The notes: generated from the sequence alone by a model not told the origin. Counted from the stretch's first letter, positions 28,644 through 49,145 are shown. The stretch is DNA of 64,000 nt from an uncultured Candidatus Saccharibacteria bacterium (GCA_964362175.1 CAYIDD010000005.1:44-64043), one strand, 5' to 3'. A program made the numbers and translations.

Positions 28644-29255
28644 ATGTCAACGATGCAAGCACATACTCCGCTCGGGACGGCAGGGTTCGCACATCCGCGG
28701 CGCAATGTGGTGACGCTGGGCGTAGAACCGGGAATGTCGGTGGCTGATTTTGGTTCGGGGAGCGGGATCTATGTGCTCCATATCGCGGAGAACCTCCAAA
28801 ATTCCGGGCACGTGTACGCGATAGACGTGCAGCGCGATCTTTTGCGTCGCCTATTGAGCGAAGCGCAACGACGCGGCTTCAAGAATGTTCAAGTCATCTG
28901 GGCTGATCTTGAGCGGGAGGGTTCATCCAAACTCGCCGATGAGAAGCTCGACCTCGTGCTTATTTCGAATCTATTGTTTCAAGTTGAAAATAAACGGGCG
29001 GTTATATGCGAGGCGCGCCGGATCTTGAGCCCCCGCGGCAGACTCGCGATCGTGGATTGGTCGGAGTCGTTTGGCGGTATGGGACCGCAAAAACAAGATG
29101 TTGTCTCAAAGGAGAAAGTGCTCGCGCTCGCGCGTGAGGCGGGCTTCGGACTGCAACGCGAGTTTTCTGCGGGAGCGCATCATTACGGACTCATCTTTCG
29201 ACCCGTCTCGCCGGGGGCAAGCCGAGGCGGACCAGCCAGTCTCAAGAAGCTATGA
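28644..29255 (+). CDS. class I SAM-dependent methyltransferase
   Basis: Motif I VADFGSGSGIYVLHIAE. Start placed at MSTMQAHT within ORF 28611-29255. Confidence 0.6.
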   Translation: MSTMQAHTPLGTAGFAHPRRNVVTLGVEPGMSVADFGSGSGIYVLHIAENLQNSGHVYAIDVQRDLLRRLLSEAQRRGFKNVQVIWADLEREGSSKLADEKLDLVLISNLLFQVENKRAVICEARRILSPRGRLAIVDWSESFGGMGPQKQDVVSKEKVLALAREAGFGLQREFSAGAHHYGLIFRPVSPGASRGGPASLKKL

Positions 29256-30550
29256 AGAAACTTTCGATGTTCCAGACCATTTTGCTCGTCGTATTTGGCG
29301 GGCTCGCTATCGCGGGCGTCTTGGTGTTCTCACTCGCTATCGGAGGCGGAGAGACCAACACCGTCGGTGCCGTACGGATATGGGGGACGCTCGATCAGGG
29401 GGCATTCGCGACCGTCCTTCGGCAAGCCGCTGAAAATAATGCTCAGCTGGCTCAGGTGACGTACGAGCAAAAAGATCCCGCGACCTACGACAACGAGCTC
29501 ACCAATGCGCTTGCCACCGGCTCAGGACCGGATCTTTTTGTCATGCGGCAGGACTATGCGCTGAAGGACGCCGGAAGGGTTACGGTCATTCCGCTCTCTG
29601 CCCTTTCCCAATCTCAATTCGAAGGTACGTTCATCGAAGCATCAAGTCCGTTTCTGACGCCAAGCGGCGTCGTAGGCGTTCCGCTCTTTGCCGATCCGCT
29701 CGTACTCTATTGGAACAAAGACGTGCTCGCTTCCGGCGGGTTTGCGCAGCCGCCGAAATTCTGGGACGAACTCTTCACCATGTCCCAAAAAATGACGACC
29801 AAAGATGACACGGGCTCCATCGTTCGGGCCACGATCGCCCTCGGTGAATATCGGAACATACGTAATGCAAAGGATATTCTTGCGACACTCATTCTCCAGG
29901 CGGGCGGTTCTATAACCGCGCGCGACACCACGGGGCGTTTGACGCCGGCACTCACACCCCGCACAGGGAATACGACGCAGGCTACCGCCTCCGCGTTGCG
30001 CTTCTATACCGAATTTGCAGATCCTTCCAAAAACGATTATTCATGGAATCGGTCGCTCCCCGAGGCGCAAAAAGCGTTCGCGGCGGGCGATCTCGCCCTC
30101 TACATAGGCTACGCGAGCGAAGACCCGTTCATCGCGCGCACGAATCCGAATCTTAATTTCGCGATAGCGCCCCTGCCGCAGATCCGGAATTCCCAATCTG
30201 CCCGCAACACCGCACGTGTCTACGCACTCGCCGCGTCGCGGACAAGCACAAACCCCAATGCCGCGATCACCGCCGCATTTTTGCTGGTTTCCGCGGACAT
30301 CGGCAAAGCACTCTCAACCGCTCTCGGGATCCCCAGTGCGCGACGCGACATCATAAACCAGCCTGCTACCGGCAACGACGATCTTTTCAACAAACAGGCC
30401 ATCCTCGCGCATTCCTGGCTTGACCCCGACCCGATCAGGACAGCCGAACTCTTTCGCGCTATGATTGAGAACACGACGAGCGGATCGCAGCTCGTCACCG
30501 AAGCGGTCCAGCGCGGTGATCAGGAATTGGGCCAGATCCTCGGCTTATGA
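29252..30550 (+). CDS. ABC transporter substrate-binding protein (family 1, sugar-type), membrane-anchored
   Basis: 432 aa. N-terminal TM/signal, then the two-lobed SBP pattern (GSGPDLFVM..., ALYIGYASE...). Confidence 0.65.
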   Translation: MKKLSMFQTILLVVFGGLAIAGVLVFSLAIGGGETNTVGAVRIWGTLDQGAFATVLRQAAENNAQLAQVTYEQKDPATYDNELTNALATGSGPDLFVMRQDYALKDAGRVTVIPLSALSQSQFEGTFIEASSPFLTPSGVVGVPLFADPLVLYWNKDVLASGGFAQPPKFWDELFTMSQKMTTKDDTGSIVRATIALGEYRNIRNAKDILATLILQAGGSITARDTTGRLTPALTPRTGNTTQATASALRFYTEFADPSKNDYSWNRSLPEAQKAFAAGDLALYIGYASEDPFIARTNPNLNFAIAPLPQIRNSQSARNTARVYALAASRTSTNPNAAITAAFLLVSADIGKALSTALGIPSARRDIINQPATGNDDLFNKQAILAHSWLDPDPIRTAELFRAMIENTTSGSQLVTEAVQRGDQELGQILGL

Positions 30551-30912
30551 AAAATTTCTTACATTCTGTACATCGAATGTGCACGGTCTTTACCGGCGCG
30601 GCGATCGTTTTTGCGGCAGGTATCGTGCAGGCGGAAACCGGTCTGGGAAATCCGCTGAACAAGAGCTTTAGCACCATACCGGCGTTTCTTGCGGGTGCTC
30701 TGAAGGTGCTCGTCATCGTGGCGCTGCCGCTCATCACGCTTTTCGTCGTCGTTGCGGGGTTCATGTTTATCAAGGCACGCGGTAATCCCACAGAACTCAC
30801 AAAGGCAAAGGAGAACTTCGTCTACGTCATCATCGGCGCTCTGCTCATCCTTGGCGCGTGGCTCATCGCGACCCTCATCGGGGGAACGGTCTCTCAGTTG
30901 GTGGGAAATTGA
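30547..30912 (+). CDS. small secreted two-TM protein, paralog 1 of tandem array (VirB2/TrbC-pilin-like topology)
   Basis: 121 aa. Signal peptide, then two hydrophobic helices separated by a short charged loop (KARGNPTELTKAKE). Confidence 0.5.
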   Translation: MKNFLHSVHRMCTVFTGAAIVFAAGIVQAETGLGNPLNKSFSTIPAFLAGALKVLVIVALPLITLFVVVAGFMFIKARGNPTELTKAKENFVYVIIGALLILGAWLIATLIGGTVSQLVGN

Positions 30913-30913
30913 T

Positions 30914-31303
30914 ATGCGTACGACACGCATCATGCCAGCGTTGTTGTTTCTCCTGATACCAGCCGCTGCTTTTGCCGCGCCCCGCAATTTTCAGGAGCTC
31001 TCGAACAGTATTGTGTTCCTGCTCGACAATGCAACGGCGGTTTTGGTGGTAGCCGGTATCGCCGTCTACTTTTACGGGATTTCAAGCAACATCCTGAAAT
31101 TCAGTGACGAGGGGGGTGAAAAAATGAAAGCATATTTCTTCTGGGGGATCATCGTGCTTTTCGTGATGGTTTCTATTTGGGGGATATTGCGCCTGCTTCA
31201 GGATACCTTGTTCGGTGGGAACCAGTTCGGCGCAACTTCTCCGCTACCACAGCAGACATCGGGAGACGTTTTCAGGTCGTCCAACATGCGTTTCCCCGAG
31301 TGA
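30914..31303 (+). CDS. small secreted two-TM protein, paralog 2
   Basis: Start MRTTRIMPALLFLLIPAAAFA (signal). C-terminal motif FVMVSIWGILRLLQDTLF shared with paralog 4. Confidence 0.55.
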   Translation: MRTTRIMPALLFLLIPAAAFAAPRNFQELSNSIVFLLDNATAVLVVAGIAVYFYGISSNILKFSDEGGEKMKAYFFWGIIVLFVMVSIWGILRLLQDTLFGGNQFGATSPLPQQTSGDVFRSSNMRFPE

Positions 31304-31319
31304 CTTCAATAATTCGCGT

Positions 31320-31715
31320 ATGAATTATCTTTCCCGCGCCACCCTCACCATGTCGCTTGTTACGGCGGCAGCGCCCGCGCTCGCAAACGCCCAGACCATC
31401 TCGCAGGCGGTGGGGCTTTTTAATGTGTTCGTGGGGCTCATGCTGACCGCGGCGCTTCTCACCTACGGTGTCGGGATGGTTGTGTGGTGGGTTCGTCTCG
31501 GAACGTGGCCTACATACAGGACCGAGGCGATAAAGATCATGGAGTGGTCGGTCGTCATGCTGTTGGTTCTCGTGGTGCTTTTGGCCATCGTCCAATTTTT
31601 CCAGAATCATCCGCGCGCGGCCGGCTATACCGTTTCTATCGTCGTACTAGTTCTTATCGTGTGGGCAATTCTTGTCATGGCGGCAAAAGGTGGGAAAAAA
31701 GAGAAAGAGCACTAG
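31320..31715 (+). CDS. small secreted two-TM protein, paralog 3
   Basis: Start MNYLSRATLTMSLVTAAAPALANA (signal). Two TM helices. KKEKEH tail. Confidence 0.5.
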   Translation: MNYLSRATLTMSLVTAAAPALANAQTISQAVGLFNVFVGLMLTAALLTYGVGMVVWWVRLGTWPTYRTEAIKIMEWSVVMLLVLVVLLAIVQFFQNHPRAAGYTVSIVVLVLIVWAILVMAAKGGKKEKEH

Positions 31716-31748
31716 ACCCCGCTCGAAGAGAGCGCCCGCAGGGGCCGA

Positions 31749-31803
31749 ATATCGGCTACTGCCGATATGAGGCGAGTCTGACACGCACAAGCTTGTGCGT
31801 GTC
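31749..31803. other. two adjacent perfect hairpins downstream of paralog 3
   Basis: atatcggc-tact-gccgatat (31749-31768) and gacacgcacaag/cttgtgcgtgtc (31780-31803, 12-bp stem). No T-run follows, so the terminator role is uncertain. Confidence 0.3.
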
Positions 31804-31943
31804 ACGGAAGTTGACGTGGGGGGTGCCTCCCGGCGGGGTCGGTTATCCACACGGAGGCGGTACCATCTATTGTATTTTCAGCCCCTGTCTATACCATTGA
31901 GGTACTTAGAAAATAAAGGGGAAATCCCAAAAAACAACAGATT

Positions 31944-32303
31944 ATGCGGAAAATTATCGTTTCTTCGGGGCTGGTCGCGGCAGTGGTGGCGCTTCCTGCT
32001 CTTGCGAGCGCAGCTACTCTTCTCGACACGCTTGCGCTCGCCAACACCTTCCTGAACGCCATGATTGGCCTCTTCATCACGCTCGCCATCGTAGTTTTCT
32101 TCTGGGGCCTCATCAAGTACCTCACCACGGCGGGGGAGGACAAGGCAGCGGGGTTGTCCATTATGTTCATGGGCGTCGTTGCCATCTTCGTCATGGTCTC
32201 AATCTGGGGCATCATCCGCCTCCTCCAAAGTACCTTCAAGGTTACCTCGACAGATCCCGTCATCCCGAAAGGCATCCAGATAAATACGGGCGTCTATCAG
32301 TAA
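31944..32303 (+). CDS. small secreted two-TM protein, paralog 4
   Basis: Signal MRKIIVSSGLVAAVVALPALASA. C-terminal FVMVSIWGIIRLLQSTF. Confidence 0.55.
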   Translation: MRKIIVSSGLVAAVVALPALASAATLLDTLALANTFLNAMIGLFITLAIVVFFWGLIKYLTTAGEDKAAGLSIMFMGVVAIFVMVSIWGIIRLLQSTFKVTSTDPVIPKGIQINTGVYQ

Positions 32304-32351
32304 TAAGATCGACTGGGCTCAAGCACGGGCTCTTCGCATTGCCCACCTATT

Positions 32352-32663
32352 ATGAATGCCCTCGGAAACCTGATGGACAAGTTTTGGTCTGCCATCATTA
32401 GTCCGGCGATCCTAATAGTGCTCGCGCTCGGCTTCCTTCTCTTCGTGTACGGACTCGTCGAATTTCTCTGGAATCTTAATACGGGGGGAGACAATAAAGA
32501 GGGGAAGCAGCATATGATGTGGGGCATCGTGGGCATCCTCGTCATGTTTTCCGTCTACGGCATCCTTGATCTCCTCGACAACACCTTCAATCTCGATTTC
32601 AGGAATCCCGATGTAAGTCGCGCGCAAAATATCAAGGTGCCATCAAATTTCGGTACTCAGTGA
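32352..32663 (+). CDS. small two-TM protein, paralog 5
   Basis: 103 aa. MMWGIVGILVMFSVYGILDLLDNTF is homologous to the VMVSIWGI(L/I)RLLQ motif. Confidence 0.5.
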   Translation: MNALGNLMDKFWSAIISPAILIVLALGFLLFVYGLVEFLWNLNTGGDNKEGKQHMMWGIVGILVMFSVYGILDLLDNTFNLDFRNPDVSRAQNIKVPSNFGTQ

Positions 32664-32753: not shown

Positions 32754-32894
32754 GTGCCCCTATCCTAGCATTTTGTCCGCCAGTGGGGCGAGATTGGACC
32801 GTCCCCGGTTCTTCGGGTCTGAAAGTGTGACGGGCTGATTTCGAAACACAGCGAGAGAAATAATGGCACCTATGGCGTTATCCACAATGTCCCT

Positions 32895-33734
32895 TTGTGG
32901 GGTGCTATGATGTACCCAATGAATCCGAATAAAGCATTGTGGGAGAAAGGAGATTTTACTGAGATCGCGGCCTTCATGCGTCAGTCCGGAGAAACACTCA
33001 TTAAGTCGCTCGGCATAACGCCGCCGCTGCGGGTCTTAGATCTCGGTTGCGGAGACGGCACTACCGCGATTCCTCTAGCCCTCTTGGGGGCTGAAGTTGT
33101 TGGGATCGACATCGCCAAGAACCTCGTCGACGCCGGAAACAAACGCGCTGTCGAGGCAGGTCTCAGCCAACTGACATTTCAAGAAGGTGATGCGTGCAAC
33201 CTGCAAGGAATCAGCGACCACTCATTTGATCTGACCATTTCTATATTCGGCGCCATGTTTGCTCCCAAGCCGTTCGACGTAGCCAAGGAGATGGTCCGTG
33301 TCACAAAACTGGGGGGCCGCATTGTGATGGGTAACTGGATCCCGAACGACCCAACCTCATTCGTGTCGCAATTGCTGAAGATAAGCGCAGCGTTTACGCC
33401 TCCGCCTCCGGAAGGCTTCGTGAGTCCCATGACGTGGGGTGTAGAAACTCACGTCATCGAACGTTTTGGTCAGGCCGGGGTTCCCAAGGAAAAGATATCG
33501 ATGGTCAAGGATACGTACTCCTTCATATCGAAGGACAAAAGCCCCGCAGAATTCGTTGAATTATTGGAACGATTCTATGGTCCGACAATGAACGCCGTCG
33601 AAGCGGCTCAAAAGAATGGAAAAGCGGATGAGCTCCACAGCCAACTTTTGGAGCTGGCGAAAGAGCAGAACAAGAGCACGGACGGCAGCACTTCAATACC
33701 CGCTACCTTCATGAGGGTGACCATTAACCTCTGA
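32895..33734 (+). CDS. class I SAM-dependent methyltransferase
   Basis: 279 aa. Motif I VLDLGCGDGTTAIPLA. Motif post-I VVGIDIA. Confidence 0.75.
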   Translation: MWGAMMYPMNPNKALWEKGDFTEIAAFMRQSGETLIKSLGITPPLRVLDLGCGDGTTAIPLALLGAEVVGIDIAKNLVDAGNKRAVEAGLSQLTFQEGDACNLQGISDHSFDLTISIFGAMFAPKPFDVAKEMVRVTKLGGRIVMGNWIPNDPTSFVSQLLKISAAFTPPPPEGFVSPMTWGVETHVIERFGQAGVPKEKISMVKDTYSFISKDKSPAEFVELLERFYGPTMNAVEAAQKNGKADELHSQLLELAKEQNKSTDGSTSIPATFMRVTINL

Positions 33735-33750
33735 GGCTGATTGAGGATAA

Positions 33751-33963
33751 TGGTGTCGGGTATCGTATTCACGACGGACCTACTTTCGACACTTTCCGAG
33801 CGTGGGGCTTATCTTCGAGCTCAGTAAACAATTCGAGCTTGGAAACTATGATTTAGTCCGCCTAACTATAGACCATTGGAACGCGCTCATCCAAGAAATG
33901 GAACAATGGCGAGGCATTACTAACGGGACAGATTTTGCCTTATCTTCCGAATCTCGCGTTTAA
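33751..33963 (+). pseudogene. start-less fragment homologous to the 3' end of large serine recombinase 2 (C-terminal tail variant)
   Basis: Frame open from the stop at 33748-50, with no start codon. Translation ...VSYSRRTYFRHFPSVGLIFELSKQFELGNYDLVRLTIDHWNALIQEMEQWRGITNGTDFALSSESRV*. Recombinase 2 has ...IAYSRGMGFGIARMGLIFELSKQFELGNYALVRPVGFEPTTVRLRGDCSTN*. Confidence 0.45.
33804..33862. repeat. 59-bp direct repeat (55/59 identical to 40959-41017), left boundary of integrated element 2
   Basis: ggggcttatCttcgagctcagtaaacaattcgagcttggaaaCtatgAtttAgtccgcc versus attR ggggcttatAttcgagctcagtaaacaattcgagcttggaaaTtatgCtttGgtccgcc. 32-bp identical core. The last ~9 nt correspond to the tRNA-Lys 3' end. 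Confidence 0.6.
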
Positions 33964-36448
33964 ACGACTCAGGCAGTTCTATAACTGATAGGTCTACAGT
34001 TGAGAGCCATTGAGTCGCTTGCTCCTCGTTAAGAGAAGGATTGCCAACCATCTTAGACAGTTCTGTGGCTACATGTCTGCTGAAGCCCATATTGATAAAT
34101 GAGACTTGCGTCATTTCTGATACTCCGAACTCAACCCACGTTCTAATATCTGGTATTTGTGCTAACAGTTCAGTTCTACCTGTTTGCTCGAAGAAATATC
34201 GGAGGGTATCTAAATAACACGTGATGTATTTCGCGAATCCAAAACGAATATCGTCTTCTATATTACGCATGGTATCTCGGATAACTACAGGAAGACGAGG
34301 GCTTCTGCCATGCTCCTGTAAATACTTGAAGTAATCCACGATTATCCTTGGCAAGGGGTAGCCGCGCATCCAAACAACCGCTAGCAACGCCTCTCGATAT
34401 GAGCTTATACTTTTTGTGTTTGGAGGTGCGAGATGTGTATTAACTCGACTGACAATTCGGTTGTAATCGCTCACTGCCGTTTGAGCGGCGACAGAAGGCG
34501 GCGGCAACAATTCTTCTACGTTCTCGTGTCCTTGGAAGTAATCATAAAGTCGTTTTACAGCAAGAGGACTAATGCCTGGATTTCGTTGAAAGATTTCCCG
34601 TGGCAACTGGACGTTTTCCCTGATTTTCCCTAACAGACTGATAAGTTCGTCCGAGAATATGCTGCTGTAATCGCCATCTAAGTATTTAAGAAAAAAGTAG
34701 CTCAACGCGTACTCCATATTCGCATCTCGAATATTGGCATCTTCGGCATGCTCGGCGACAAATTCAAGGAATGATGACCCCTCTCCAGTGATTTCAACAA
34801 GTGATTTCTTTATCTCATAACGACGTTCGCCCCAGAGAGGCTTATGCGTCCATTCTTCAGGTTCTATACAGAAAATATTTCCTTGAAAATCTTTGGAGAG
34901 TCTGCCTGCTCGTCCCGCCAAGTTCCAAAAATCCGCTTCTGACATCGGATTGCCACGACCACGAGATGGATTGGTAATGAAAATCGCTTTTGCCGACAGA
35001 TTCACTCCCTCTAGTAAAGTTGATGTGCAGACTAAATATTTAATAGCTCCCTCTCGGAACAATCTTTCAATTTCACGTCTAACCAAAAGCGGCATATTTC
35101 CGTAATGAAAAGCGACACCATAGGGCAATACTTGCGGTAGTGCATAGTGCGGATGAATAAGTCTTTTTGAGAGGTCTATCAACTCATCGAATGACGACTC
35201 ATCCTTTTCAACACCCATTTGTCTCAATTCATCTGCAATGCTTTGTGCGATTCTCTCAGCACTAGCTGCTCCAGATGCATATACCAAATTTCCACCGTCC
35301 TTACTCAGTAAGATTGGTAGCTTGCTACATTTCTTAGCAATTGTACCAAGAGTTTGTTCAAGTACGATTTTTCCTAAAGGAATAGATTGGGTCTTTAAGC
35401 AAAGCGTAATGTCCCATTCTTTGGGTTTACGAGGTACTTTAGAGAGCCAAATGAGGTTTTGGTTTACCGCCACATAATCCGTTAGAATGCTTACGCCCGT
35501 ATCTGAGTTCGATATTCCTAAAAGTATCTCAGGATTTCGGGAGAATGCGCTACAGAAGAGCACTCGCGAGGACGGATTAATACGCTGAACCTGCTCCACT
35601 TTCTCCTGCAGTAAAATACCACGTTGACCATCTCCTATCTTTTGTGCCTCATCAACAATTAGCAGGTCGACGGAATAGTCTGGATTATCCGTGAGAAACC
35701 AATGCAGTCTCTCCTGCGTGAAGACAAAGAGGTGATTTGAGTTCTTGTATTGGACTGGGGGCAATTTCGGGACTGAGCTTATGTAGACATTCTTTTCTAG
35801 ACCATATTCTGTGAGACTTTCATTGAAGCGGTCTTCCACTTCGTTAATAAGAGCACGAGTTGGGACGATATATACGATATGTGATGTTCTATCTGATTCT
35901 GACAAGGCTTTTGCGACAATGAGACTAAGCACGAACGACTTTCCAGCCGATGTCGGCGCGGAAGCACTTACTGTATTCTGCTCTCGTGCGGCAATATAAA
36001 GTTGTCTCTGAAATTTATTCAAATACCTAGTGTCGTTAACAATCTCAACTGTATGCAGTTGGTCGCGCCACATTTTCTCGACGAGAAGAGGACGCGGAAT
36101 GTCCTCCTCATAATTTTCGGGAATGTATTCTTTTTCTATAGCAAGATTAATCGCGGGCGCATTTGTCAGTTTCCCAAAAATAATCGCTGCTGCAACGTGA
36201 TATGACGGGTCAACCGCAGTCGTGAGACAGTATTGTGCGATGCGTAATGCCGCATCCTGACACTCCGCATCGTTTGCTTGCGCTAAAATGCTTCCGCAGA
36301 GAAGCATGTAGTTCCAGTCAATGTTCGGCTGCTGGTGGTCGTCAGAAAATCTTGTTGGCAAACTACCGAGAACGGAGGCATGGAGTATACTGCTAAATTC
36401 GTTTCTGAATTCTTGCAGTCCAAGTATTTTGCGTGCCAATTTGTCCAT
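33920..36448 (-). CDS. superfamily 2 DExH-box helicase (Ski2-like; HamB-like candidate)
   Basis: 842 aa. Motif I APTSAGKS, Ia IVPTRAL, II LLIVDEAQ, VI NLAGRAGR. Characteristic YGVAFHYGNMP...LVCTSTLLEGVNLSA RecA2 region. Confidence 0.8.
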   Translation of the reverse strand: MDKLARKILGLQEFRNEFSSILHASVLGSLPTRFSDDHQQPNIDWNYMLLCGSILAQANDAECQDAALRIAQYCLTTAVDPSYHVAAAIIFGKLTNAPAINLAIEKEYIPENYEEDIPRPLLVEKMWRDQLHTVEIVNDTRYLNKFQRQLYIAAREQNTVSASAPTSAGKSFVLSLIVAKALSESDRTSHIVYIVPTRALINEVEDRFNESLTEYGLEKNVYISSVPKLPPVQYKNSNHLFVFTQERLHWFLTDNPDYSVDLLIVDEAQKIGDGQRGILLQEKVEQVQRINPSSRVLFCSAFSRNPEILLGISNSDTGVSILTDYVAVNQNLIWLSKVPRKPKEWDITLCLKTQSIPLGKIVLEQTLGTIAKKCSKLPILLSKDGGNLVYASGAASAERIAQSIADELRQMGVEKDESSFDELIDLSKRLIHPHYALPQVLPYGVAFHYGNMPLLVRREIERLFREGAIKYLVCTSTLLEGVNLSAKAIFITNPSRGRGNPMSEADFWNLAGRAGRLSKDFQGNIFCIEPEEWTHKPLWGERRYEIKKSLVEITGEGSSFLEFVAEHAEDANIRDANMEYALSYFFLKYLDGDYSSIFSDELISLLGKIRENVQLPREIFQRNPGISPLAVKRLYDYFQGHENVEELLPPPSVAAQTAVSDYNRIVSRVNTHLAPPNTKSISSYREALLAVVWMRGYPLPRIIVDYFKYLQEHGRSPRLPVVIRDTMRNIEDDIRFGFAKYITCYLDTLRYFFEQTGRTELLAQIPDIRTWVEFGVSEMTQVSFINMGFSRHVATELSKMVGNPSLNEEQATQWLSTVDLSVIELPESFKREIRKIRQNLSR

Positions 36449-36457
36449 AAGGCATAC

Positions 36458-37423
36458 TCAACGCTCTAAGGCGCGAGTTAAGGCTTCGCGAAATTTTGCT
36501 ACCGAAGGCAGAGGAAGGATAAATAAGTGTATAACTATGGTCTCAACTTTTTGACTCTTTATTTCGGCATGGATTTTTTCAATCCATACGCTTAGGCTTT
36601 CGACTATGGCCTTTTTAACAGCTTCTACGTTGCCCGTATTTTGGACGGATGGGTAATGTTCGAAATCAAAACCAACGAGCCCAATTCCACGATAATTCAC
36701 TCGATTCGCTAAAGGTGAATCTTTTTTAAGATAACGTATCAGTGCCGACTCCAAATTCTCATCAGCAATATTTTCTGCGAGGTGGTCATGTGCCAACTGC
36801 AAATCTCTTTCTCGGCGTTCTGCGCCACCATCTACAAGAAGATAGGCGGATAAATCTTTAATGCACTCTTTAATGGCTGTTGCGGGATTTTGCTGGAGTT
36901 TTGACTCACACCAATACAGACATAAAATTGGTTCTTTACCCTCGTCATTCTCAATGGACAAGTGAATACCGTCAGAGCCGTGCACGGGCATTTCTGAGTT
37001 TGTCTTGAGAGGCATTTTGCACAGCAGTTGAGGGTACTTGAGGAATTCCTGAGCCATAAGATACAGGAGCAATTCACCACCCTCGCCAGATATACCCGTG
37101 GACTTAAATAACCCCCGTGCTGTCTTTTGTAATGCTGCAACTTTTCGGGTGGTGTTGTGCTTTGTATCGTAAGCTTTTGCTTCTGCGATTTTTGAGCGAG
37201 GAATTGCAAAATCAGCAGCGTTTGTAGCTAGGAAATCTGCCAAATCGTCAATCGGGGGCATGCCGTTCCCGTCCAATTCCAAAACGTAGCAGTGCGATGT
37301 TGCCCTTGTCGCCCCGACAACAACATTTACTTCTATTTCGGAGAAATATCGAGATAATTCAGCCTCACTGGTACTAAGTAAGCCACCCACTTCTCCTTTG
37401 AGGTCGTTGGATGACTTATTCAT
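36458..37423 (-). CDS. hypothetical protein with PD-(D/E)xK-like motif (HamA/DUF1837-like candidate)
   Basis: 321 aa, 9 bp upstream of the helicase. ...VHGSDGIHLSIENDEGKEPILCLYWCESKL... fits D...ExK nuclease spacing. GELLLYLMAQEFL segment. Size and gene order match Hachiman hamA-hamB. Confidence 0.4.
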   Translation of the reverse strand: MNKSSNDLKGEVGGLLSTSEAELSRYFSEIEVNVVVGATRATSHCYVLELDGNGMPPIDDLADFLATNAADFAIPRSKIAEAKAYDTKHNTTRKVAALQKTARGLFKSTGISGEGGELLLYLMAQEFLKYPQLLCKMPLKTNSEMPVHGSDGIHLSIENDEGKEPILCLYWCESKLQQNPATAIKECIKDLSAYLLVDGGAERRERDLQLAHDHLAENIADENLESALIRYLKKDSPLANRVNYRGIGLVGFDFEHYPSVQNTGNVEAVKKAIVESLSVWIEKIHAEIKSQKVETIVIHLFILPLPSVAKFREALTRALER

Positions 37424-37477
37424 GAATAAAGCCTACTCCAAACCACGAATATAAACAAATGGCAACAAAGTCGGCTC

Positions 37478-37648
37478 TCAATCAAATTTCTTTGAGAAAG
37501 TGGCGACGTTTTGTTTCTTTCTGTGAAAATAAACTTCTAAGGCTAACTCGGCCATGTCGTAAAGTGCCTTCCTGAGCTCATCAATTTCTTGGTCAGAGAG
37601 TTTGTTGCTATCGGGTATTAACTCGCGGCATTTTTCTAGAGAAAGCAT
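37478..37648 (-). CDS. small hypothetical helical protein (56 aa)
   Basis: ORF 37478-37732. Start placed at MLSLEKCRELIP to avoid overlap with the upstream gene. Confidence 0.3.
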   Translation of the reverse strand: MLSLEKCRELIPDSNKLSDQEIDELRKALYDMAELALEVYFHRKKQNVATFSKKFD

Positions 37649-37650
37649 AC

Positions 37651-37944
37651 CTATACTGTGAAGAAGACAGAGGCAGAGCCTAAAACAATCAAGATATTCG
37701 CCACCGCGTATATCGTAATTACATGCCACCAATTGTCGCCTGACTTAAGGGATTGGTACGAGGCAATAATTCCGGTAATAGCTGAAACAAGAGCCGTCAG
37801 AATCATCGCGTAGTACGAAATGCCAGCCACGACGATTTTCAGAGCGTCCTTAAGGTACGGCCATTCGTTTACAGACGAGAGAATGGACACGAATAAAATA
37901 CAGAGAGCCAAAGAGAACAAGCTTATTTTTAGGTATTTGTTCAT
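37651..37944 (-). CDS. small membrane protein (3 TM, 97 aa)
   Basis: MNKYLKISLFSLALCILFVSILS... has three hydrophobic helices. Holin-like size and topology, but this is speculative. Confidence 0.45.
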   Translation of the reverse strand: MNKYLKISLFSLALCILFVSILSSVNEWPYLKDALKIVVAGISYYAMILTALVSAITGIIASYQSLKSGDNWWHVITIYAVANILIVLGSASVFFTV

Positions 37945-37974
37945 AAGTCAACGACTAATTAAGGGGCGAGTAAT

Positions 37975-38190
37975 CTAAATTCCCTGAGCGTCGAGAAAGT
38001 CAGGCTTAGCATTATCTTGCTGCTGCTCGTAAGACTTTTCTTCCAAGTGAGCGCAAAGACTCGGATTGCGCGAACAATCTATCACAGTTGGTTTCGCTCT
38101 ATTGCTAGGGTCTTCCAGCAAACCCCCGAAGGTAAACCACAGAATAAAGAGCCCGAAGAGTACGCCTGCTATGAGTTTCAAATTCTCCAT
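37975..38190 (-). CDS. small secreted protein with signal peptide and two Cys
   Basis: 71 aa. MENLKLIAGVLFGLFILWFTFGG signal. Immediately downstream of structured repeat copy B. Confidence 0.45.
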   Translation of the reverse strand: MENLKLIAGVLFGLFILWFTFGGLLEDPSNRAKPTVIDCSRNPSLCAHLEEKSYEQQQDNAKPDFLDAQGI

Positions 38191-38207
38191 AAAAAAACGC
38201 TAGCTAA

Positions 38208-38397
38208 TAATGCTAGCGGGAGTGCAACACTAAACCCCGCGCCAGCTAAGCCTTGCGGCCCCACACCCCTTTCGGGATATGGCTCATGGAAGAGTCGCTG
38301 AACGCGGGGTTCAGTACCTTCCATGAGTCTTTTCGACCATGCCACCAGACGTTGGTGGGTTAGGTCGCGCCCTTACGGGCTGATATTGGGTGTGTAA
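38208..38397. repeat. structured repeat element, copy B (homolog of 4779-4943)
   Basis: Perfect 10-bp stem ctcatggaag (38283-38292) / cttccatgag (38318-38327) encloses ...gctgaacgcggggttcag.... Upstream aaccccgcg is complementary to cgcggggtt. Shares aacactaa(a/g)ccccgcgccagcta, gccttgcggccccacaccc and tattgggtRtgtgtaa blocks with copy A. Confidence 0.6.
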
Positions 38398-38595
38398 AAG
38401 CACTATATCATCACACGGAAAAACACACAGAAAACAGGTGCGTGCAAGGAGGTTTAGGATTATCCAAATGCTTGGATAGAGCCATATAAGGCGTCTGTAG
38501 GTCAAAAAAGGAGGTAGGAGGGGTACGGGGACCAAAACCCTGATTAAAACTACATACCACCGTCCCTCGACAAATTTTATATATATTTTTGTAGG

Positions 38596-38651
38596 TCTTA
38601 ACTTGAAGCCTTAACAGGATATTTAAACGCCATTAACTCAGGCTCTTAAAC
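38596..38651. promoter_or_regulatory. AT-rich region with iteron-like TTAAC-N9-TTAAC repeats upstream of the HTH/recombinase genes of element 2
   Basis: tcTTAACttgaagccTTAACa and atTTAACtcaggctcTTAAAc, about 14 bp apart. Further gcttgacttagagcc nearby. Confidence 0.3.
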
Positions 38652-38892
38652 AAAGCATTCTTTTTGTGCTATATCCTAAAATAGCTTGACTTAGAGCCAT
38701 ATTTTTGATAGGATTAGAGCATAAGATTATTAGCTAATAGGTTCATTTGAAATGGGATGATTTCTCTCGAAAAAACGCGAGAGCTCCTAAATGAAGCATC
38801 ATCTGTACAACTCCAAGATAAAGAAGTTGCGGCATTCCGCGATTCCTGCGCGGCATTAGCTCGTATTTTTGTGGACACGGTTTTAGAAGAAC

Positions 38893-39291
38893 TTGGGAGC
38901 CAACCCAAGGCTAATTAAACACGCAAATATGAGCAAACCAATTACAGGTCTATTCGTTCCAAAAGCAATACTGTTAGATGGTAATTTAGGTTCATCACAA
39001 AAACTGCTTTTTTCGGAGATTCATCACCTTTCTGGAAGTGAAAGAGGATGTTACGCCGGAAATAATCATCTCGGAGAAATGATTGGATTATCTAGCGCAC
39101 AAGTAAGCAGAATTATTTCTGGGTTACGGCGGTCAGGCTATATCCGATGGGAACTCGCTGAAGAAGAAGTGACGCGACGAAGAATGTACTCCACTCTCGA
39201 AAGAGATGACGAGGACGCAGAAGTTAATGATGTAGCAAGGGAATACGCGGATAGGGAGAGGGACTTCGACTTTTCCGATGAGGGGGTATAA
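38893..39291 (+). CDS. small HTH (winged-helix-like) DNA-binding protein with acidic tail (element 2)
   Basis: 132 aa. ...HLGEMIGLSSAQVSRIISGLRRSGYIRWE... looks like helix-turn-helix. Acidic C-terminus DDEDAEVND. Confidence 0.5.
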   Translation: MGANPRLIKHANMSKPITGLFVPKAILLDGNLGSSQKLLFSEIHHLSGSERGCYAGNNHLGEMIGLSSAQVSRIISGLRRSGYIRWELAEEEVTRRRMYSTLERDDEDAEVNDVAREYADRERDFDFSDEGV

Positions 39292-39498
39292 GCAGGACCG
39301 CTCAACGAAGATAATAGTAGAGACAATAGTTAAATAATACTCTCACTACTCCCAGCTTCGCTGGGAACGAACGATAGTTCGTTAGTGGCACTACTAAATC
39401 TTTAGTCTTAACCAACTCGATATTATCTATCCCTGTACAGCTCTACAAACAATGGCCGCGGCTAGGATTATCCAGAAGTGTTATTCTTAAAGTACGTT

Positions 39499-41073
39499 AT
39501 GAAAGCAATCATCTACACTCGTGTCAGCAGCGATGAACAAATCAAAGGCACTTCTCTTGCAGACCAAGAGCGTCGGTGTACTGCCTACTGCGAGGAAAAC
39601 GGATACGAGGTACAGGCTGTGTTTCGCGAGGAAGGCGCGTCAGCAAAAACAGCAGACCGGAAGGAGCTCTTTAGCGCAATGGAGTTCTGTCGTACACACA
39701 AGGGCGAGATAGATTTCTTTGTGGTCTTCAAGCTCGACCGCTTTGCACGGAATGTTTCCGACCACTTCGGCGTCAGGAAAAGTCTCAAAGAGTACGGAGT
39801 TGAGTTGAGGTCTGTGTCGGAGCAATTAGGCGATGAACCGTCTGAGAAGTTTATGGAAGCTGTTATCGCGGCGGCCTCTGAGTACGATAATGGCGTTCGT
39901 ACACAACGAGCCACTAATGGCATGGTGGCAAAGATACGCGAGGGTATATGGCCATGGAAAGCCCCCTTGGGCTATGTTCCCAATCCGAAGCGGGTATTAG
40001 GAGGAAAGAAAAATATGCCTGATGTTCCGGACCCTGCTACTTTCTCGATACTACAAACAGCTTTCAGAGAGTACGCACAGGGTGAACATACTCCAATAAG
40101 TCTTGGACGCAGACTTGATGCGCTTGGATTAGCTGCGATTAGAGGCAAGCAAGCGTCATCTCAGTTCATTCAGCAGTTATTAGTGGAGCGACGCATAAAG
40201 TTTTATGCGGGGAAGCTGATTACAGACCTTAATGGAGAAAATGAGGTGCAGGGCTTACACCAGCCGATGATAACTGAGACCGAATGTGCGAGCATGATTG
40301 GATATATCCATGGCAAGAAAAAGCCAGTTCAACGCCATGCATTAGTTAACCCTAATTTCCCTCTAAAGGGCGGTACAGTCCTTTGTGGCGCATGTACGAA
40401 GCCTCTGACGGGTAGTACAACGCGAGGTCGAAGTGGTTTGCACCCTTACTACCACTGCTACAACAAGCAGTGTGAGATGTACGGAAAGATTACTCAGAAA
40501 GATGTCCTAGAAAACGATTTCCTGACCTTACTAAATAAAGTTGCTCCTTCTGGAAAGTTTATTGCCTATTTCAAGAAAGCCGTGATTGATGAGTGGGAGA
40601 ATCGAGTCGGACAGATAAAGGATGTACACAAGGAATACGAGGAGAGCCGTCGTAAACTTAACGAAAGTCTAGACCGCATAAAACAGCTTCTTGAAGACGG
40701 CACTTACAGCCGCGCAGAGTATCTAGAGCGTAAGCAGAAGATTGAAAACGGATTGATGACAACGGGAATATCTGAGAACGAGTCGCACATTGAACAAATG
40801 GACATTGAGGCATTGCTTACTAAAGCAACAGAGTTCCTTACCTCGTTGGGCGAGCACTGGAAGAAAATGCCACCGACTGTACGGCCAAGATTCCAAAAGC
40901 TGGTCTATCCAGACGGAATTGCTTACTCTCGCGGTATGGGATTTGGAATCGCACGAATGGGGCTTATATTCGAGCTCAGTAAACAATTCGAGCTTGGAAA
41001 TTATGCTTTGGTCCGCCCAGTAGGATTCGAACCTACGACCGTTCGCTTAAGAGGCGACTGCTCTACCAACTGA
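39499..41073 (+). CDS. large serine recombinase (element 2)
   Basis: Start MKAIIYTRVSSDEQ, with the catalytic Ser in the resolvase domain. Zinc ribbon CGACTKPLTG...HCYNKQC. Coiled coil. The last ~65 nt read antisense through tRNA-Lys (tail VGFEPTTVRLRGDCSTN). Confidence 0.85.
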   Translation: MKAIIYTRVSSDEQIKGTSLADQERRCTAYCEENGYEVQAVFREEGASAKTADRKELFSAMEFCRTHKGEIDFFVVFKLDRFARNVSDHFGVRKSLKEYGVELRSVSEQLGDEPSEKFMEAVIAAASEYDNGVRTQRATNGMVAKIREGIWPWKAPLGYVPNPKRVLGGKKNMPDVPDPATFSILQTAFREYAQGEHTPISLGRRLDALGLAAIRGKQASSQFIQQLLVERRIKFYAGKLITDLNGENEVQGLHQPMITETECASMIGYIHGKKKPVQRHALVNPNFPLKGGTVLCGACTKPLTGSTTRGRSGLHPYYHCYNKQCEMYGKITQKDVLENDFLTLLNKVAPSGKFIAYFKKAVIDEWENRVGQIKDVHKEYEESRRKLNESLDRIKQLLEDGTYSRAEYLERKQKIENGLMTTGISENESHIEQMDIEALLTKATEFLTSLGEHWKKMPPTVRPRFQKLVYPDGIAYSRGMGFGIARMGLIFELSKQFELGNYALVRPVGFEPTTVRLRGDCSTN

Positions 41074-41084: not shown

Positions 41085-41122
41085 TTACGTGGGATTCTAC
41101 AGGAAATAATGCTTTTTTGAAG

Positions 41123-48265: not shown

Positions 48266-48275
48266 TATCCCCACT

Positions 48276-48388: not shown

Positions 48389-48793
48389 ATGACCCAAAGA
48401 CGAGTGATGGTAGGTTTCATACTATTCCTCACTATCGCTACATCCGCCCCCTCGCTTGCACTCGCCGCCAATGCGCTTCCGAGCCAGATCGTTCCGGAAG
48501 AGTGCAACCAGAAGGGCGGCTGTCAGTCGATCTGCGATCTAGCACAAGTCGCCCACAACATCCTCAATACCGGCATTTATATCGCTGTGTTTCTCTCCGC
48601 CATCCTTTTTGCGTGGGCGGGGTGGCTGTATCTGACGGATGTTGCCAACGCAGGGCAGCATTCAAAGGCAGTAGAGGTATTTCAGTATGTCGCTACAGGC
48701 CTTGTCATCATCCTTATAGGATGGCTAGTTGTGGACGTACTCATACGAACGTTGGCAGGGGACAACTTTAGTTCATGGAATAAGATTTGTTAA
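48389..48793 (+). CDS. small secreted two-TM protein, distant sixth member of the 30.5-32.7 kb paralog family
   Basis: Start MTQRRVMVGFILFLTIATSAPSLALA (signal). Two TM helices. GLVIILIGWLVVDVLIRTLAG is comparable to the family C-terminal helix. Confidence 0.45.
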   Translation: MTQRRVMVGFILFLTIATSAPSLALAANALPSQIVPEECNQKGGCQSICDLAQVAHNILNTGIYIAVFLSAILFAWAGWLYLTDVANAGQHSKAVEVFQYVATGLVIILIGWLVVDVLIRTLAGDNFSSWNKIC

Positions 48794-48907: not shown

Positions 48908-49145
48908 AATGTCCCTCACTTTTAGGGTAAAGATCGTTGACGGAGATGGAAACCCTGTATCTGGCGAAACGGTTCTCGTCGTTGAGTCGGCGATAACGGG
49001 GCCGTCTCAGAGTCAATGTACGGATAGCGACGGGTGGGCTGAATTTGAGTTTGAACGGAACAGGCTCTATGCCTACGTCCATGTCGCTGGCGAAGAACAT
49101 CACGTTATCGTTGATGACGGTGATGAACTTTCCTTCACAATCTAG
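48908..49145 (+). CDS. small hypothetical protein (79 aa), beta-rich
   Basis: MSLTFRVKIVDGDGNPVSGETVLVVES... resembles the carboxypeptidase-regulatory/Ig-like pattern. Confidence 0.3.

What the first reader, a model, noticed from the sequence alone, without database searches (positions are those of the whole stretch)
30547..32663. Tandem array of five paralogous small secreted two-TM proteins (VirB2/TrbC-pilin-like topology), plus a sixth copy at 48389
Five consecutive same-strand genes (103-132 aa) each encode a signal peptide followed by two hydrophobic helices separated by a short charged loop. Three share a near-identical C-terminal helix (F/I)VMVSIWGI(L/I)RLLQ(D/S)T(L/F), and the others are divergent versions. 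A sixth member lies after tRNA-Tyr (48389-48793). The topology resembles conjugative or type-IV-secretion pilins (VirB2/TrbC), but no secretion ATPase or other T4SS gene is present in the window. Two strong hairpins follow the third gene. Diversified tandem paralogs of surface-exposed small proteins suggest antigenic variation, a surface filament or appendage subunit, or an interaction function.
Basis: seen in the sequence. Interest (0 to 1): 0.65.

Follow-up and report, generated by a model that had tools for sequence, protein, structure and literature searches.

The report
VirB2-like pilin gene array, Kaiserbacteria
This is the set of six small secretion-system "pilin-like" membrane proteins that ultra-small Patescibacteria are already known to carry, here in a Kaiserbacteria genome as a strongly conserved operon joined to a sugar-binding-protein gene and far from the secretion machinery, so it is a known kind of feature rather than a variable surface antigen.

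Summary
The six genes are real and homologous. They belong to Pfam PF18895 (T4SS_pilin), the VirB2/TrbC-like pilins of Patescibacteria. Tandem arrays of 2-11 such divergent pilins are already published (PMC12102498; PMC10633639).

The window is a Candidatus Kaiserbacteria groundwater contig.
- Gene 5 has no signal peptide.
- Gene 3 has a third membrane helix.
- Only two genes, not three, share the near-identical C-terminal helix.

The "antigenic variation" reading is not supported. In about 80 species-level relatives the order gyrA-methyltransferase-SBP-g1-g2-g3-g4-g5 is fixed. Orthologues are one-to-one at 44-67 % median identity, against 23-30 % between paralogues, and dN is far below dS.

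No T4SS gene lies in the 64 kb. According to a published table, most Kaiserbacteria genomes carry virB4 elsewhere.

Points the papers I read do not mention:
- A solute-binding-protein gene overlaps g1 by 4 nt in 51 of 76 loci.
- Other lineages fuse 2-3 pilin modules into one protein.
- An exact DnaA box lies about 90 nt upstream of g4, the most conserved member, in 39 of 79 loci.

Most likely the six proteins are co-assembling subunits of the T4SS-associated filament or channel. Interest is modest.

The parts
29252..30550 (+). Membrane-anchored solute-binding protein (SBP_bac_1, distant carbohydrate-binding type). It is the first gene of the conserved operon, and its stop codon overlaps the g1 start by 4 nt (ATGA).
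   Evidence: Pfam PF01547 E 3e-21. The nearest solved relatives are maltose/trehalose-binding proteins, E 2e-8. It lies directly upstream of g1 in 76-78 of 80 loci, with a 4-nt overlap in 51 of 76. It also precedes the array in the distant lineage L091.
30547..30912 (+). g1: the canonical VirB2/TrbC-like pilin. It has a signal peptide (...VQA|E), a conserved NPL motif and a two-helix hairpin, and the protein ends just after helix 2.
   Evidence: PF18895 35 bits (above cut-off) and PF04956 25.1 bits. Orthologues: 54/54 PF18895, 47/54 PF04956. 48/54 match NF045849, the Mycoplasma ICE pilin-like protein, below its cut-off. Alignment A1.
30914..31303 (+). g2: a pilin paralogue of the g4 subfamily with a signal peptide (AFA|A) and a hairpin. 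It starts 1 nt after the g1 stop.
   Evidence: No Pfam hit of its own. hhalign to g4 99.8 %, E 1e-28. The g4 HMM scores it 61.6 bits.
31320..31715 (+). g3: a pilin paralogue with a signal peptide (ANA|Q), a hairpin and an extra C-terminal membrane helix followed by a Lys/Glu-rich tail.
   Evidence: PF18895 16.2 bits, E 0.012. hhalign to g4 99.1 %. Hydrophobic segments at about 30-56, 69-97 and 98-126. 32 of 63 orthologues show four hydrophobic segments.
31715..31845 (+). Structured intergenic element between g3 and g4: an outer stem enclosing two hairpins. It is probably the terminator or processing site that ends the SBP-g1-g2-g3 unit.
   Evidence: MFE -98 kcal/mol for 31700-31950, z = -4.8, with 0 of 200 shuffles folding as well. 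Inverted repeats. No Rfam match. Parts of it occur at the same site in relatives, in either orientation.
31843..31851 (+). Exact DnaA-box 9-mer TTATCCACA, 101 nt upstream of the g4 start codon. It is a candidate regulatory site.
   Evidence: The exact box, in the same orientation, lies within 200 nt upstream of g4 in 39 of 79 loci, and with one mismatch in 30 more. Of 42 exact boxes in 655 kb of loci, 36 are at this position; about 5 are expected in all. It is also present in the distant lineage L091.
31869..31897 (+). Inferred promoter of g4-g5: -35-like TTGTAT (31870-31875) and -10-like TACCAT (31892-31897), 16 nt apart.
   Evidence: Inferred from conservation. ATTGTGTTTT and TA(C/G)(C/A)AT blocks recur downstream of the box in the 39 aligned loci, and L091 has TTGTAA ... 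TATAAT. The consensus promoter scan did not report it.
31944..32303 (+). g4: the most conserved pilin paralogue. It has a signal peptide (ASA|A), a hairpin and a conserved 20-residue C-terminal tail (TSTDPVIPKGIQIN). It is the candidate major subunit.
   Evidence: PF18895 25.3 bits. 764 homologues, the best 120 at 73-100 % identity. Median orthologue identity 67 %, the highest of the five. Nearly invariant tail residues. AF2 hairpin H3-63/H67-98, pLDDT 74.
32352..32663 (+). g5: a pilin paralogue without a signal peptide, consisting of the hairpin alone.
   Evidence: PF18895 25.1 bits. hhalign to g4 99.4 %. 72 of 75 orthologues have two hydrophobic segments. An 80-aa version without a signal peptide occurs in L091.
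48389..48793 (+). g6: a g1-type pilin paralogue with a signal peptide (ALA|A), a Cys-rich N-terminal segment, a hairpin and a C-terminal Cys. In this genome it is detached from the array.
   Evidence: hhalign to g1 98.7 %, E 3e-16. Many homologues carry PF18895 and one is named 'pilin'. Conserved C39, C49 and C134. In L091 the g6-type gene sits directly after the SBP gene. AF2 model.
48909..49145 (+). Small Ig-like ORF (78 aa, no signal peptide) just downstream of g6. It may be an associated gene, but its role is unknown.
   Evidence: Weak Big_1/MG4 matches below cut-off or marginal. A homologue lies between g1 and g2 in L007, L016 and L035, and near the array in L044.

Best explanation
The six genes encode the VirB2-like ('T4SS_pilin', PF18895) subunit set of a Patescibacteria type IV secretion system whose ATPase and channel genes lie elsewhere in the genome.

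Shown here:
- The six are homologous small proteins of this family.
- They are predicted alpha-helical hairpins.
- They form a fixed, ordered, purifying-selected set in all sampled Kaiserbacteria.
- The set is organised as SBP-g1-g2-g3, then a structured spacer, a DnaA box and a promoter, then g4-g5, with g6 elsewhere.

Inferred:
- g1-g4 and g6 are exported by Sec and cut by signal peptidase I after their AxA-type sites. A LepB gene is at 20767-21420.
- g5 inserts without cleavage. All of them sit in the membrane as hairpins with both ends outside.
- A VirB4/VirB6-type machine then draws them into one heteromeric extracellular filament or channel that contacts the host cell.
- g4 is the major subunit. 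The others are minor, initiating or anchoring subunits: g3 has an extra membrane helix and g5 has no leader.
- The co-translated SBP acts at or with this structure.
For: Family:
- Pfam PF18895 on g1 above cut-off, g4 and g5 just below, g3 weak.
- Orthologue sets: 54/54 and 60/62 match PF18895, and 47/54 match PF04956.
- Many g6 homologues carry PF18895.
- Profile-profile links connect all six, and the group HMMs hit nothing else in the window.
- 48 of 54 g1 orthologues hit the Mycoplasma ICE pilin-like NF045849 below its cut-off. This fits the monoderm (MPF-FATA) origin reported for the Patescibacteria T4SS (PMC12102498).

Fold: AF2 gives two long helices joined by a 3-4 residue loop.

One assembly rather than alternatives:
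- Gene order is fixed, with one-to-one orthologues, in about 80 species.
- Gaps or overlaps of 1-4 nt join SBP, g1, g2 and g3.
- 59 of the top 150 family representatives are natural fusions of 2-3 pilin modules. One such fusion sits at the same locus in a distant lineage.

T4SS elsewhere in the genome: 19 of 24 listed Kaiserbacteria MAGs, and 6 of 9 named MAGs that carry this array, are VirB4-positive in Table S1 of PMC12102498.

Precedent: 441 arrays of 2-11 pilins with a mean identity of 25 % (PMC12102498), and six essential VirB2-like pilins in Southlakia epibionticum (PMC10633639 and PMC12857230).
Against: - No T4SS gene lies within 64 kb, nor within +/-10 kb in relatives L007 and L009. 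The link to a T4SS is therefore by family membership only.
- VirB4 could not be checked in this genome, and 3 of 9 named array-bearing MAGs are listed VirB4-negative.
- A profile of g1 orthologues finds no solved T4SS pilin by sequence.
- Foldseek against the PDB gives no significant match.
- None of the papers I read reports a T4SS pilus actually observed on a Patescibacterium.
- A polypeptide with three fused hairpins, a leaderless member and a three-helix member fit a membrane-resident complex at least as well as an extruded filament.
- The role of g4 as major subunit rests only on its conservation and its own promoter.
Confidence: 0.6

Rival explanations
1. The proteins form a membrane-resident heteromeric complex rather than a pilus. 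The six hairpins (about 13 helices) would stay in the cytoplasmic membrane as a channel or platform that works with the co-translated solute-binding protein. This could be an uptake route replacing an ABC permease, or the inner-membrane part of the T4SS.
For: - The SBP gene overlaps g1 by 4 nt in 51 of 76 loci, and the SBP-array link persists in a distant lineage.
- No ABC permease or ATPase gene, and no VirB4, was found in the window.
- Natural fusions of 2-3 modules give 4-6 membrane helices in one chain.
- g5 has no leader and g3 has a third helix.
Against: - The family's only annotated relatives are T4SS pilins: PF04956 and NF045849.
- In other Patescibacteria these genes lie inside T4SS clusters, and they are near virB4 in 1135 of 1948 assemblies (PMC12102498).
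- A fusion is compatible with a filament, because on the inferred topology both ends of each hairpin lie on the same side of the membrane (not tested here).
- The SBP is only distantly related to characterised binding proteins, so its ligand and its partner are unknown.
Confidence: 0.22
2. Antigenic or host-range variation. On this view the paralogues are alternative surface subunits diversified to evade recognition or to bind different hosts.
For: - Paralogues are only 23-30 % identical.
- Bartonella and Anaplasma VirB2 arrays are interpreted this way (cited in PMC12102498).
Against: - Each paralogue has a one-to-one orthologue in the same order in about 80 species.
- g4 is 75-92 % identical across many species, and its exposed C-terminal tail is nearly invariant.
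- dN is far below dS for all five. For example, against L011, g4 has dN 0.095 and dS 1.5.
- No copy-number turnover was seen beyond rare extra g4-like hits.
- No repeats or recombination substrates flank the genes.
Confidence: 0.05
3. The proteins are unrelated small hydrophobic proteins, such as holin-like or immunity proteins, whose resemblance to pilins is compositional.
For: - Fold search and the PDB sequence search gave nothing specific.
- g2 and g6 have no Pfam hit of their own.
Against: - The group HMMs hit only the six ORFs among 702, so hydrophobicity alone does not produce matches.
- Pfam matches cover the whole 71-residue model and recur in 54/54 and 60/62 orthologues.
- There is no phage or toxin context. 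The flanking genes are gyrA, a methyltransferase and the SBP gene upstream, and a tRNA gene and a second methyltransferase downstream. In relatives rbfA and infB follow the array.
Confidence: 0.05

Closest known systems
VirB2-like pilin arrays of Patescibacteria T4SS (PF18895). Examples: the six essential pilins in the Southlakia epibionticum T4SS cluster (PMC10633639, PMC12857230) and the 441 arrays reported in PMC12102498.
   Same: Same Pfam family and same size and topology. Both are tandem arrays of highly divergent paralogues: about 25 % identity there, 23-30 % here. Both have six members in all, and both occur in a monoderm host with a conjugation-derived T4SS that usually lacks a relaxase.
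   Different: - Here the array is not in a T4SS cluster; there is no T4SS gene within 64 kb.
- It is part of a conserved gyrA-methyltransferase-SBP-pilin operon.
- One member lacks a signal peptide and one has a third helix.
- One member (g6) is detached by 16 kb.
- The order and identity of members are fixed across a whole lineage.
- None of these points is mentioned in the papers I read.
TrbC/VirB2 conjugative pilins of diderm bacteria (PF04956): Agrobacterium VirB2, RP4 TrbC, F-type TraA.
   Same: Both have a long signal peptide, two hydrophobic helices joined by a short loop, and a total length of about 100-130 residues. g1 aligns to nearly the whole PF04956 model (positions 9-97 of 98), and 47 of 54 orthologues match it.
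   Different: - The window's g1 scores below the family cut-off (25.1 against 27.9 bits).
- There is no sequence match to any solved pilin.
- The host has no outer membrane.
- There are several co-conserved paralogues instead of one major pilin.
- No cyclisation or maturation enzyme gene (TraF-like) was identified in the window.
Mbov_0395 family pilin-like conjugal transfer protein of Mycoplasma ICEs (NCBIfam NF045849).
   Same: It is a small two-helix protein of a monoderm (MPF-FATA-type) conjugation system. g1 aligns to positions 7-79 of the 80-position model, and 48 of 54 g1 orthologues match at E <= 1e-3.
   Different: All scores are below the curated cut-off (22.5 against 40 bits for g1), so these proteins are relatives at best and not members. 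The Mycoplasma protein is encoded inside a mobile element next to VirB4 and VirD4.
VirB2 paralogue arrays of Bartonella and Anaplasma (as cited in PMC12102498).
   Same: Several tandem VirB2-family genes.
   Different: Those arrays are interpreted as antigenic or host-adaptive variants. Here the copies are ancient, ordered and each is under purifying selection.

Membership tests
PF18895 T4SS_pilin (Patescibacteria VirB2-like pilins) | Match to the Pfam model at or above the gathering score (26.6 bits) | tested here: met
   g1 scores 35.0 bits. g4 (25.3) and g5 (25.1) fall just below, g3 scores 16.2, and g2 and g6 have no direct hit. All 54 g1 orthologues and 60 of 62 members of alignment A2 (g4, 58 relatives, plus the window's g2, g3 and g5) match at E <= 1e-3, and many g6 homologues carry the domain. 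g2 and g6 are tied in by hhalign (99.8 % to g4; 98.7 % to g1).
PF18895 T4SS_pilin (Patescibacteria VirB2-like pilins) | Small protein with a cleavable signal peptide followed by two membrane helices joined by a short loop | tested here: met
   Met for g1, g2, g4 and g6, from hydropathy and AxA-type sites and AF2 hairpins. Not met in full by g5 (no signal peptide) or g3 (a third helix). Cleavage itself is predicted only.
PF18895 T4SS_pilin (Patescibacteria VirB2-like pilins) | Occurs as a tandem array of divergent paralogues (2-11 genes, about 25 % identity; PMC12102498) | tested here: met
   Five adjacent genes plus one distant gene, with pairwise identity of 23-30 %.
PF18895 T4SS_pilin (Patescibacteria VirB2-like pilins) | Encoded next to virB4 or other T4SS genes (true in 1135 of 1948 assemblies; not universal) | tested here: not met
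   No VirB4, VirB6, VirD4, VirB3 or VirB8 domain in about 55 ORFs of the 64-kb window, nor within +/-10 kb in L007 and L009.
PF18895 T4SS_pilin (Patescibacteria VirB2-like pilins) | A T4SS (VirB4) is present in the same genome | not testable with these tools
   The rest of this genome is not available. Indirect evidence: 19 of 24 Kaiserbacteria MAGs, and 6 of 9 named array-bearing MAGs, are VirB4-positive in Table S1 of PMC12102498.
PF04956 TrbC/VirB2 conjugative pilin | Match to the Pfam model at or above the gathering score (27.9 bits) | tested here: inconclusive
   g1 scores 25.1 bits, E 2e-5, over model positions 9-97 of 98. 47 of 54 orthologues match at E <= 1e-3, the best at 6e-11. The other five genes do not match.
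PF04956 TrbC/VirB2 conjugative pilin | Sequence or fold similarity to solved T4SS pilins | tested here: not met
PF04956 TrbC/VirB2 conjugative pilin | Polymerises into an extracellular pilus in a VirB4-dependent manner; terminal processing or cyclisation | not testable with these tools
   This needs experiment.
Type IV pilins (T4P, PilA-like) | Class III leader with G|F(T/S)LxE and a single N-terminal hydrophobic helix followed by a globular domain | tested here: not met
   The sequences have Sec-type leaders with AxA-type sites, no G|FxxxE motif, and two hydrophobic helices with no globular domain. There is no T4P Pfam hit.
NF045849 Mbov_0395 pilin-like conjugal transfer protein (Mycoplasma ICE) | Score at or above the curated cut-off (40 bits) | tested here: not met
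   g1 22.5, g6 15.4 and g5 13.9 bits. 48 of 54 g1 orthologues match at E <= 1e-3, but the window's g1 (22.5 bits) is well below the 40-bit cut-off. These proteins are distant relatives, not members.
ABC importer (for the SBP gene 29252-30550) | A solute-binding protein encoded with its permease and ATPase genes | tested here: not met
   The SBP_bac_1 domain is present, but no permease or ABC ATPase domain was found in any scanned ORF of the window. In 76-78 of 80 loci the SBP gene is followed by the pilin genes instead.

The most novel reading that the evidence does not exclude
The conserved gyrA-proximal module (a membrane-anchored sugar-type binding protein plus six VirB2-like hairpins) may be a self-contained envelope organelle. 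On this reading the pilin-like proteins act as the conduit or platform for capturing material from the host, in place of an ABC permease. Its major subunit would be switched by the replication initiator DnaA through the conserved box at the g4 promoter. That would tie building of the host-contact structure to the cell cycle, and to the T4SS core, which in Paceibacteria lies next to dnaA.
Probability: 0.1. Interest if true: 0.75.

Novelty: new member of a known kind. Interest (0 to 1): 0.35.

Why it matters
The T4SS and its pilins are among the few systems shown to be essential for the host-dependent life of Patescibacteria. What the pilins build, and why there are about six of them, is still unknown.

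This locus adds comparative constraints:
- In Kaiserbacteria the six types are fixed, ordered and individually conserved.
- In other lineages they are fused into single chains.
- They are co-translated with a binding protein.

Together these point to one heteromeric assembly rather than to interchangeable variants.

The DnaA box at the promoter of the most conserved subunit gives a concrete, testable regulatory hypothesis. The basic finding, an array of VirB2-like pilins in a Patescibacterium, is already published.

Tried and rejected
- Profile of g1 orthologues against all PDB sequences: no relevant hit.
- Foldseek of the g6 model against the PDB: no match with E <= 0.001, and the top hits were unrelated membrane or coiled helices.
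- Rfam on the whole window and on 31600-32000: nothing at the g3-g4 spacer.
- The consensus promoter/terminator scan did not report the g4 promoter or a canonical terminator after g3. The promoter is inferred from conservation only.
- dN/dS: synonymous sites are saturated between species-level relatives (dS about 1-2.5 or undefined). Only dN far below dS can be stated, not a precise ratio.
- My crude regular-expression test for signal peptides was unreliable and I discarded it. I used counts of hydrophobic segments instead.
- Context look-ups for two more distant family members returned contigs of 1-1.5 kb and were uninformative.
- A type IV pilus (PilA-type) identity was considered and rejected from the sequences.
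- A seventh copy in the window was searched for and not found.
- An oriC explanation for the DnaA box was considered and rejected. There is a single box per locus, no GC-skew switch in the window, and the array lies about 0.2 Mb from coordinate 1 of the complete chromosome CP066682.1.

Full report
**What is in the sequence**

The region holds five consecutive + strand ORFs:
- g1 30547-30912 (121 aa)
- g2 30914-31303 (129 aa)
- g3 31320-31715 (131 aa)
- g4 31944-32303 (119 aa)
- g5 32352-32663 (103 aa)

A sixth ORF, g6, lies at 48389-48793 (134 aa), just after tRNA-Tyr 48275-48362.

Three details differ from the description:
- g5 starts directly with the first helix and has no leader.
- g3 has a leader and three hydrophobic helices.
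- The near-identical helix FVMVSIWGI(L/I)RLLQ is shared by g2 and g4 only. g5 carries a diverged form.

The two hairpins after g3 are real: arms 31744-31756/31761-31773, and a perfect 26-nt palindrome at 31779-31804. They are part of a larger fold spanning 31715-31845, with MFE z = -4.8.

**Is it more than chance?**

Yes.
- HMMs built from the orthologues of each gene hit only these six of 702 stop-to-stop ORFs in the window.
- Profile-profile comparison defines two subfamilies. {g1, g6} score 98.7 %. {g2, g3, g4, g5} score 90-99.8 %.
- The subfamilies are bridged by g4-g6 (95.3 %) and g2-g6 (90.6 %).

**What family it is**

- g1 matches Pfam PF18895 (T4SS_pilin) above the gathering score, and PF04956 (TrbC/VirB2) just below it. 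g4 and g5 fall 1.3-1.5 bits short of the PF18895 cut-off.
- On orthologues the signal is consistent. All 54 g1 orthologues match PF18895 and 47 match PF04956.
- 60 of 62 members of the g4-centred alignment A2 match PF18895.
- Many g6 homologues carry PF18895, and NCBI names one of them 'pilin'.
- 48 of 54 g1 orthologues also match, below cut-off, the Mycoplasma ICE 'pilin-like conjugal transfer protein' NF045849.
- AF2 models are helical hairpins with mean pLDDT about 74.
- Neither a profile search of PDB sequences nor Foldseek against the PDB retrieves a solved pilin. Fold membership therefore rests on the Pfam profiles.
- The family is very large: 8,547 representatives of 50 % clusters at E <= 1e-3.

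**Source and context**

- g4 is encoded identically on groundwater contigs from Hainich well H43, and its relatives are Candidatus Kaiserbacteria/Paceibacteria.
- The window is ordinary chromosome. It carries gyrA, ftsZ/ftsA, infB, clpB, topA, relA/spoT, parB, dprA, serS and lepB.
- No VirB4, VirB6, VirD4, VirB3 or VirB8 domain was found in about 55 scanned ORFs.
- Immediately upstream of g1 is a membrane-anchored solute-binding protein gene (SBP_bac_1). Its stop codon overlaps the g1 start (ATGA). g2 follows g1 after 1 nt and g3 follows g2 after 16 nt.
- Then come the 228-nt structured spacer, g4, a 48-nt gap, g5, and a convergent tRNA-Leu.

**Comparative evidence**

A scan of one genome per species returned 80 loci.
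- Nearly all show the same order: gyrA-methyltransferase-SBP-g1-g2-g3-g4-g5.
- Orthologues are one-to-one. Median identities are 58, 50, 44, 67 and 52 % for g1-g5, against 23-30 % between paralogues.
- The SBP-g1 overlap of 4 nt occurs in 51 of 76 loci. The g3-g4 gap has a median of 110 nt.
- Against the nearest relatives, dN is 0.1-0.35 while dS is saturated at 0.9 or more.
- g4 is the most conserved, and its C-terminal tail (TSTDPVIPKGIQIN) is nearly invariant.
- g5 orthologues consistently lack a leader (72 of 75), and many g3 orthologues have the extra helix.

This is the signature of six old, distinct, individually constrained subunits. It is not the signature of rapidly diversifying surface variants.

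**Fusions and a distant lineage**

- Among the 150 best family representatives, 59 contain two or three pilin modules in one polypeptide. These have a single N-terminal leader and short linkers between modules.
- One three-module protein, P0364, lies in the same gyrA-methyltransferase-SBP ... rbfA-infB locus of a distant lineage (gyrA 67 % and SBP 35 % identical to the window).
- There the SBP gene is followed by a g6-type gene, a g1-type gene, the triple fusion, a g4-type gene, an unrelated 645-aa gene, a leaderless 80-aa g5-type gene and another g4-type gene.
- The SBP-pilin module and its member types therefore predate Kaiserbacteria, and g6 was once part of the array. The fusions argue that the paralogues sit next to each other in one assembly.

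**What is already known**

- PMC12102498 reports VirB2-like pilins in 1,948 VirB4-positive Patescibacteria assemblies. They are near virB4 in 1,135 of them.
- The same paper reports 441 arrays of 2-11 pilin genes with a mean identity of 25 %.
- PMC10633639 shows that the pilin series in the Southlakia epibionticum T4SS cluster is essential.
- PMC12857230 describes it as six structurally conserved, sequence-divergent VirB2-like pilins.
- Table S1 of PMC12102498 lists 19 of 24 RIFCSP Kaiserbacteria MAGs as VirB4-positive. Of nine named MAGs that carry this array, six are VirB4-positive.

The finding is thus a further member of a known kind. The papers I read do not mention the SBP coupling, the fixed order, the leaderless member, the fusions or the DnaA box.

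**Most likely mechanism (confidence about 0.6)**

The six proteins are the pilin-like subunits of the Patescibacteria T4SS, which is encoded elsewhere in the genome.
- Five are exported by Sec and cut by signal peptidase I. g5 inserts uncut.
- All reside as hairpins with both ends outside the membrane.
- They are then assembled by the VirB4/VirB6-type machine into one heteromeric filament or channel at the host contact.
- g4 would be the major subunit.
- The SBP would work at this structure.

Family membership, topology prediction, operon structure and conservation are shown. Processing, assembly, the role of g4 and the T4SS dependence are inferred.

**Rival explanations**

- The main rival (about 0.2) is a membrane-resident complex working with the SBP. 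The fusions, the leaderless member, the three-helix member and the lack of any nearby T4SS or ABC gene fit it as well.
- Antigenic variation is largely refuted (about 0.05).
- A purely compositional resemblance is largely refuted (about 0.05).

**A regulatory detail found in passing**

- An exact DnaA box (TTATCCACA) lies at 31843-31851, 101 nt upstream of g4.
- The same 9-mer, in the same orientation, lies within 200 nt upstream of g4 in 39 of 79 loci, and with one mismatch in 30 more.
- Of 42 exact boxes in 655 kb of loci, 36 are at this one position. About 5 are expected in total.
- The box is followed by conserved -35-like (TTGTGT/TTGTAT) and -10-like (TACCAT/TAGCAT/TATAAT) blocks.
- The distant L091 lineage has the same arrangement upstream of its g4-type gene.
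- g4-g5 therefore appear to form their own transcription unit with a conserved upstream site of DnaA-box sequence. Binding by DnaA is untested.

**Verdict**

The VirB2-like reading is supported and the antigenic-variation reading is not. This is a new member of a known kind, with a few additional and testable features. Interest 0.35.

Noticed in passing
window 31843-31851 (+); also L013-L088 and L091:7345-7353: An exact DnaA-box 9-mer, TTATCCACA, lies about 50-135 nt upstream of the g4-type pilin gene. It is exact in 39 of 79 loci and has one mismatch in 30 more, always in the same orientation. Conserved -35-like and -10-like blocks follow it. 36 of the 42 exact boxes in 655 kb of loci sit at this one position. 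It may mean DnaA-linked control of the most conserved pilin.
   Followed up: partly
window 32878-32886 (+): The only other exact TTATCCACA in the 64 kb lies about 1 kb downstream of the first, just upstream of the methyltransferase ORF 32895-33734. Its conservation was not checked.
   Followed up: no
window 31715-31845; L029, L063, L015, L016, L007: The structured g3-g4 spacer (MFE z = -4.8) has no Rfam match. Its first 60-78 nt or so recur at the same intergenic site in relatives. They are in the same orientation in L015, L016 and L007 but inverted in L029 (91 %) and L063. It could be a small invertible or mobile palindromic element, or a bidirectional terminator.
   Followed up: partly
P0363-P0367, P0369, P0372-P0374, P0376, P0382 and others; L091:6239-7240: Natural fusions of two or three PF18895 pilin modules in one polypeptide, with a single leader and short linkers. 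They make up 59 of the top 150 family representatives.
   Followed up: partly
window 29252-30550; L011-L090; L091:3846-5132: A membrane-anchored SBP_bac_1 protein gene with no ABC permease or ATPase nearby is coupled to the first pilin gene. The 4-nt overlap occurs in 51 of 76 loci, and the gene precedes the array even in a distant lineage.
   Followed up: partly
window 4804-4922 (-) and 38248-38366 (-): Two copies of LOOT RNA (Rfam RF03000, 77-78 bits against a gathering score of 46). Each lies about 1 kb upstream of a large serine recombinase gene (5909-7726 and 39478-41073, which are 23 % identical to each other) and close to tRNA genes. The two RNAs are 83 % identical. LOOT may mark integrative elements.
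   Followed up: partly
window 33920-41100: A low-GC stretch (about 44 %, against 55 % elsewhere) carries a Hachiman defence pair: HamB-like helicase 33920-36448 (-) and HamA 36458-37423 (-). It also carries a LOOT RNA and a serine recombinase, and ends at tRNA-Lys. In relatives L007 and L009 the pilin array is followed by rbfA-infB after only one to three other genes, with no Hachiman pair or recombinase, so this looks like an inserted island.
   Followed up: partly
window 48909-49145 (+); L007:8607-8870; L016, L035, L044: A small (78-87 aa) Ig-like ORF with no signal peptide (weak Big_1/MG4 matches) lies next to pilin genes in different places. It follows g6 here and lies between g1 and g2 in some relatives.
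   Followed up: no
window 48389-48793 (g6); alignment A3: g6 orthologues conserve Cys39 and Cys49 in the segment before helix 1, and a C-terminal Cys134 in a WNxIC motif. Some g1-type proteins have a CxxxxC before the NPL motif and, in L091, a C-terminal Cys. This suggests disulfides tying the two extracellular ends together, loosely comparable to pilin cyclisation. It was not tested on the model.
   Followed up: no
L009:10773-11270 and L010:3113-3514: In one relative the array is followed by a secreted protein that is extremely rich in Tyr, Asn and Gln and of low complexity (133-165 aa).
   Followed up: no
L091:8112-10049: A 645-aa cytoplasmic-looking protein with only a faint glycosyltransferase-2 match (E 0.008) is embedded in the pilin array of the distant lineage.
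   Followed up: no
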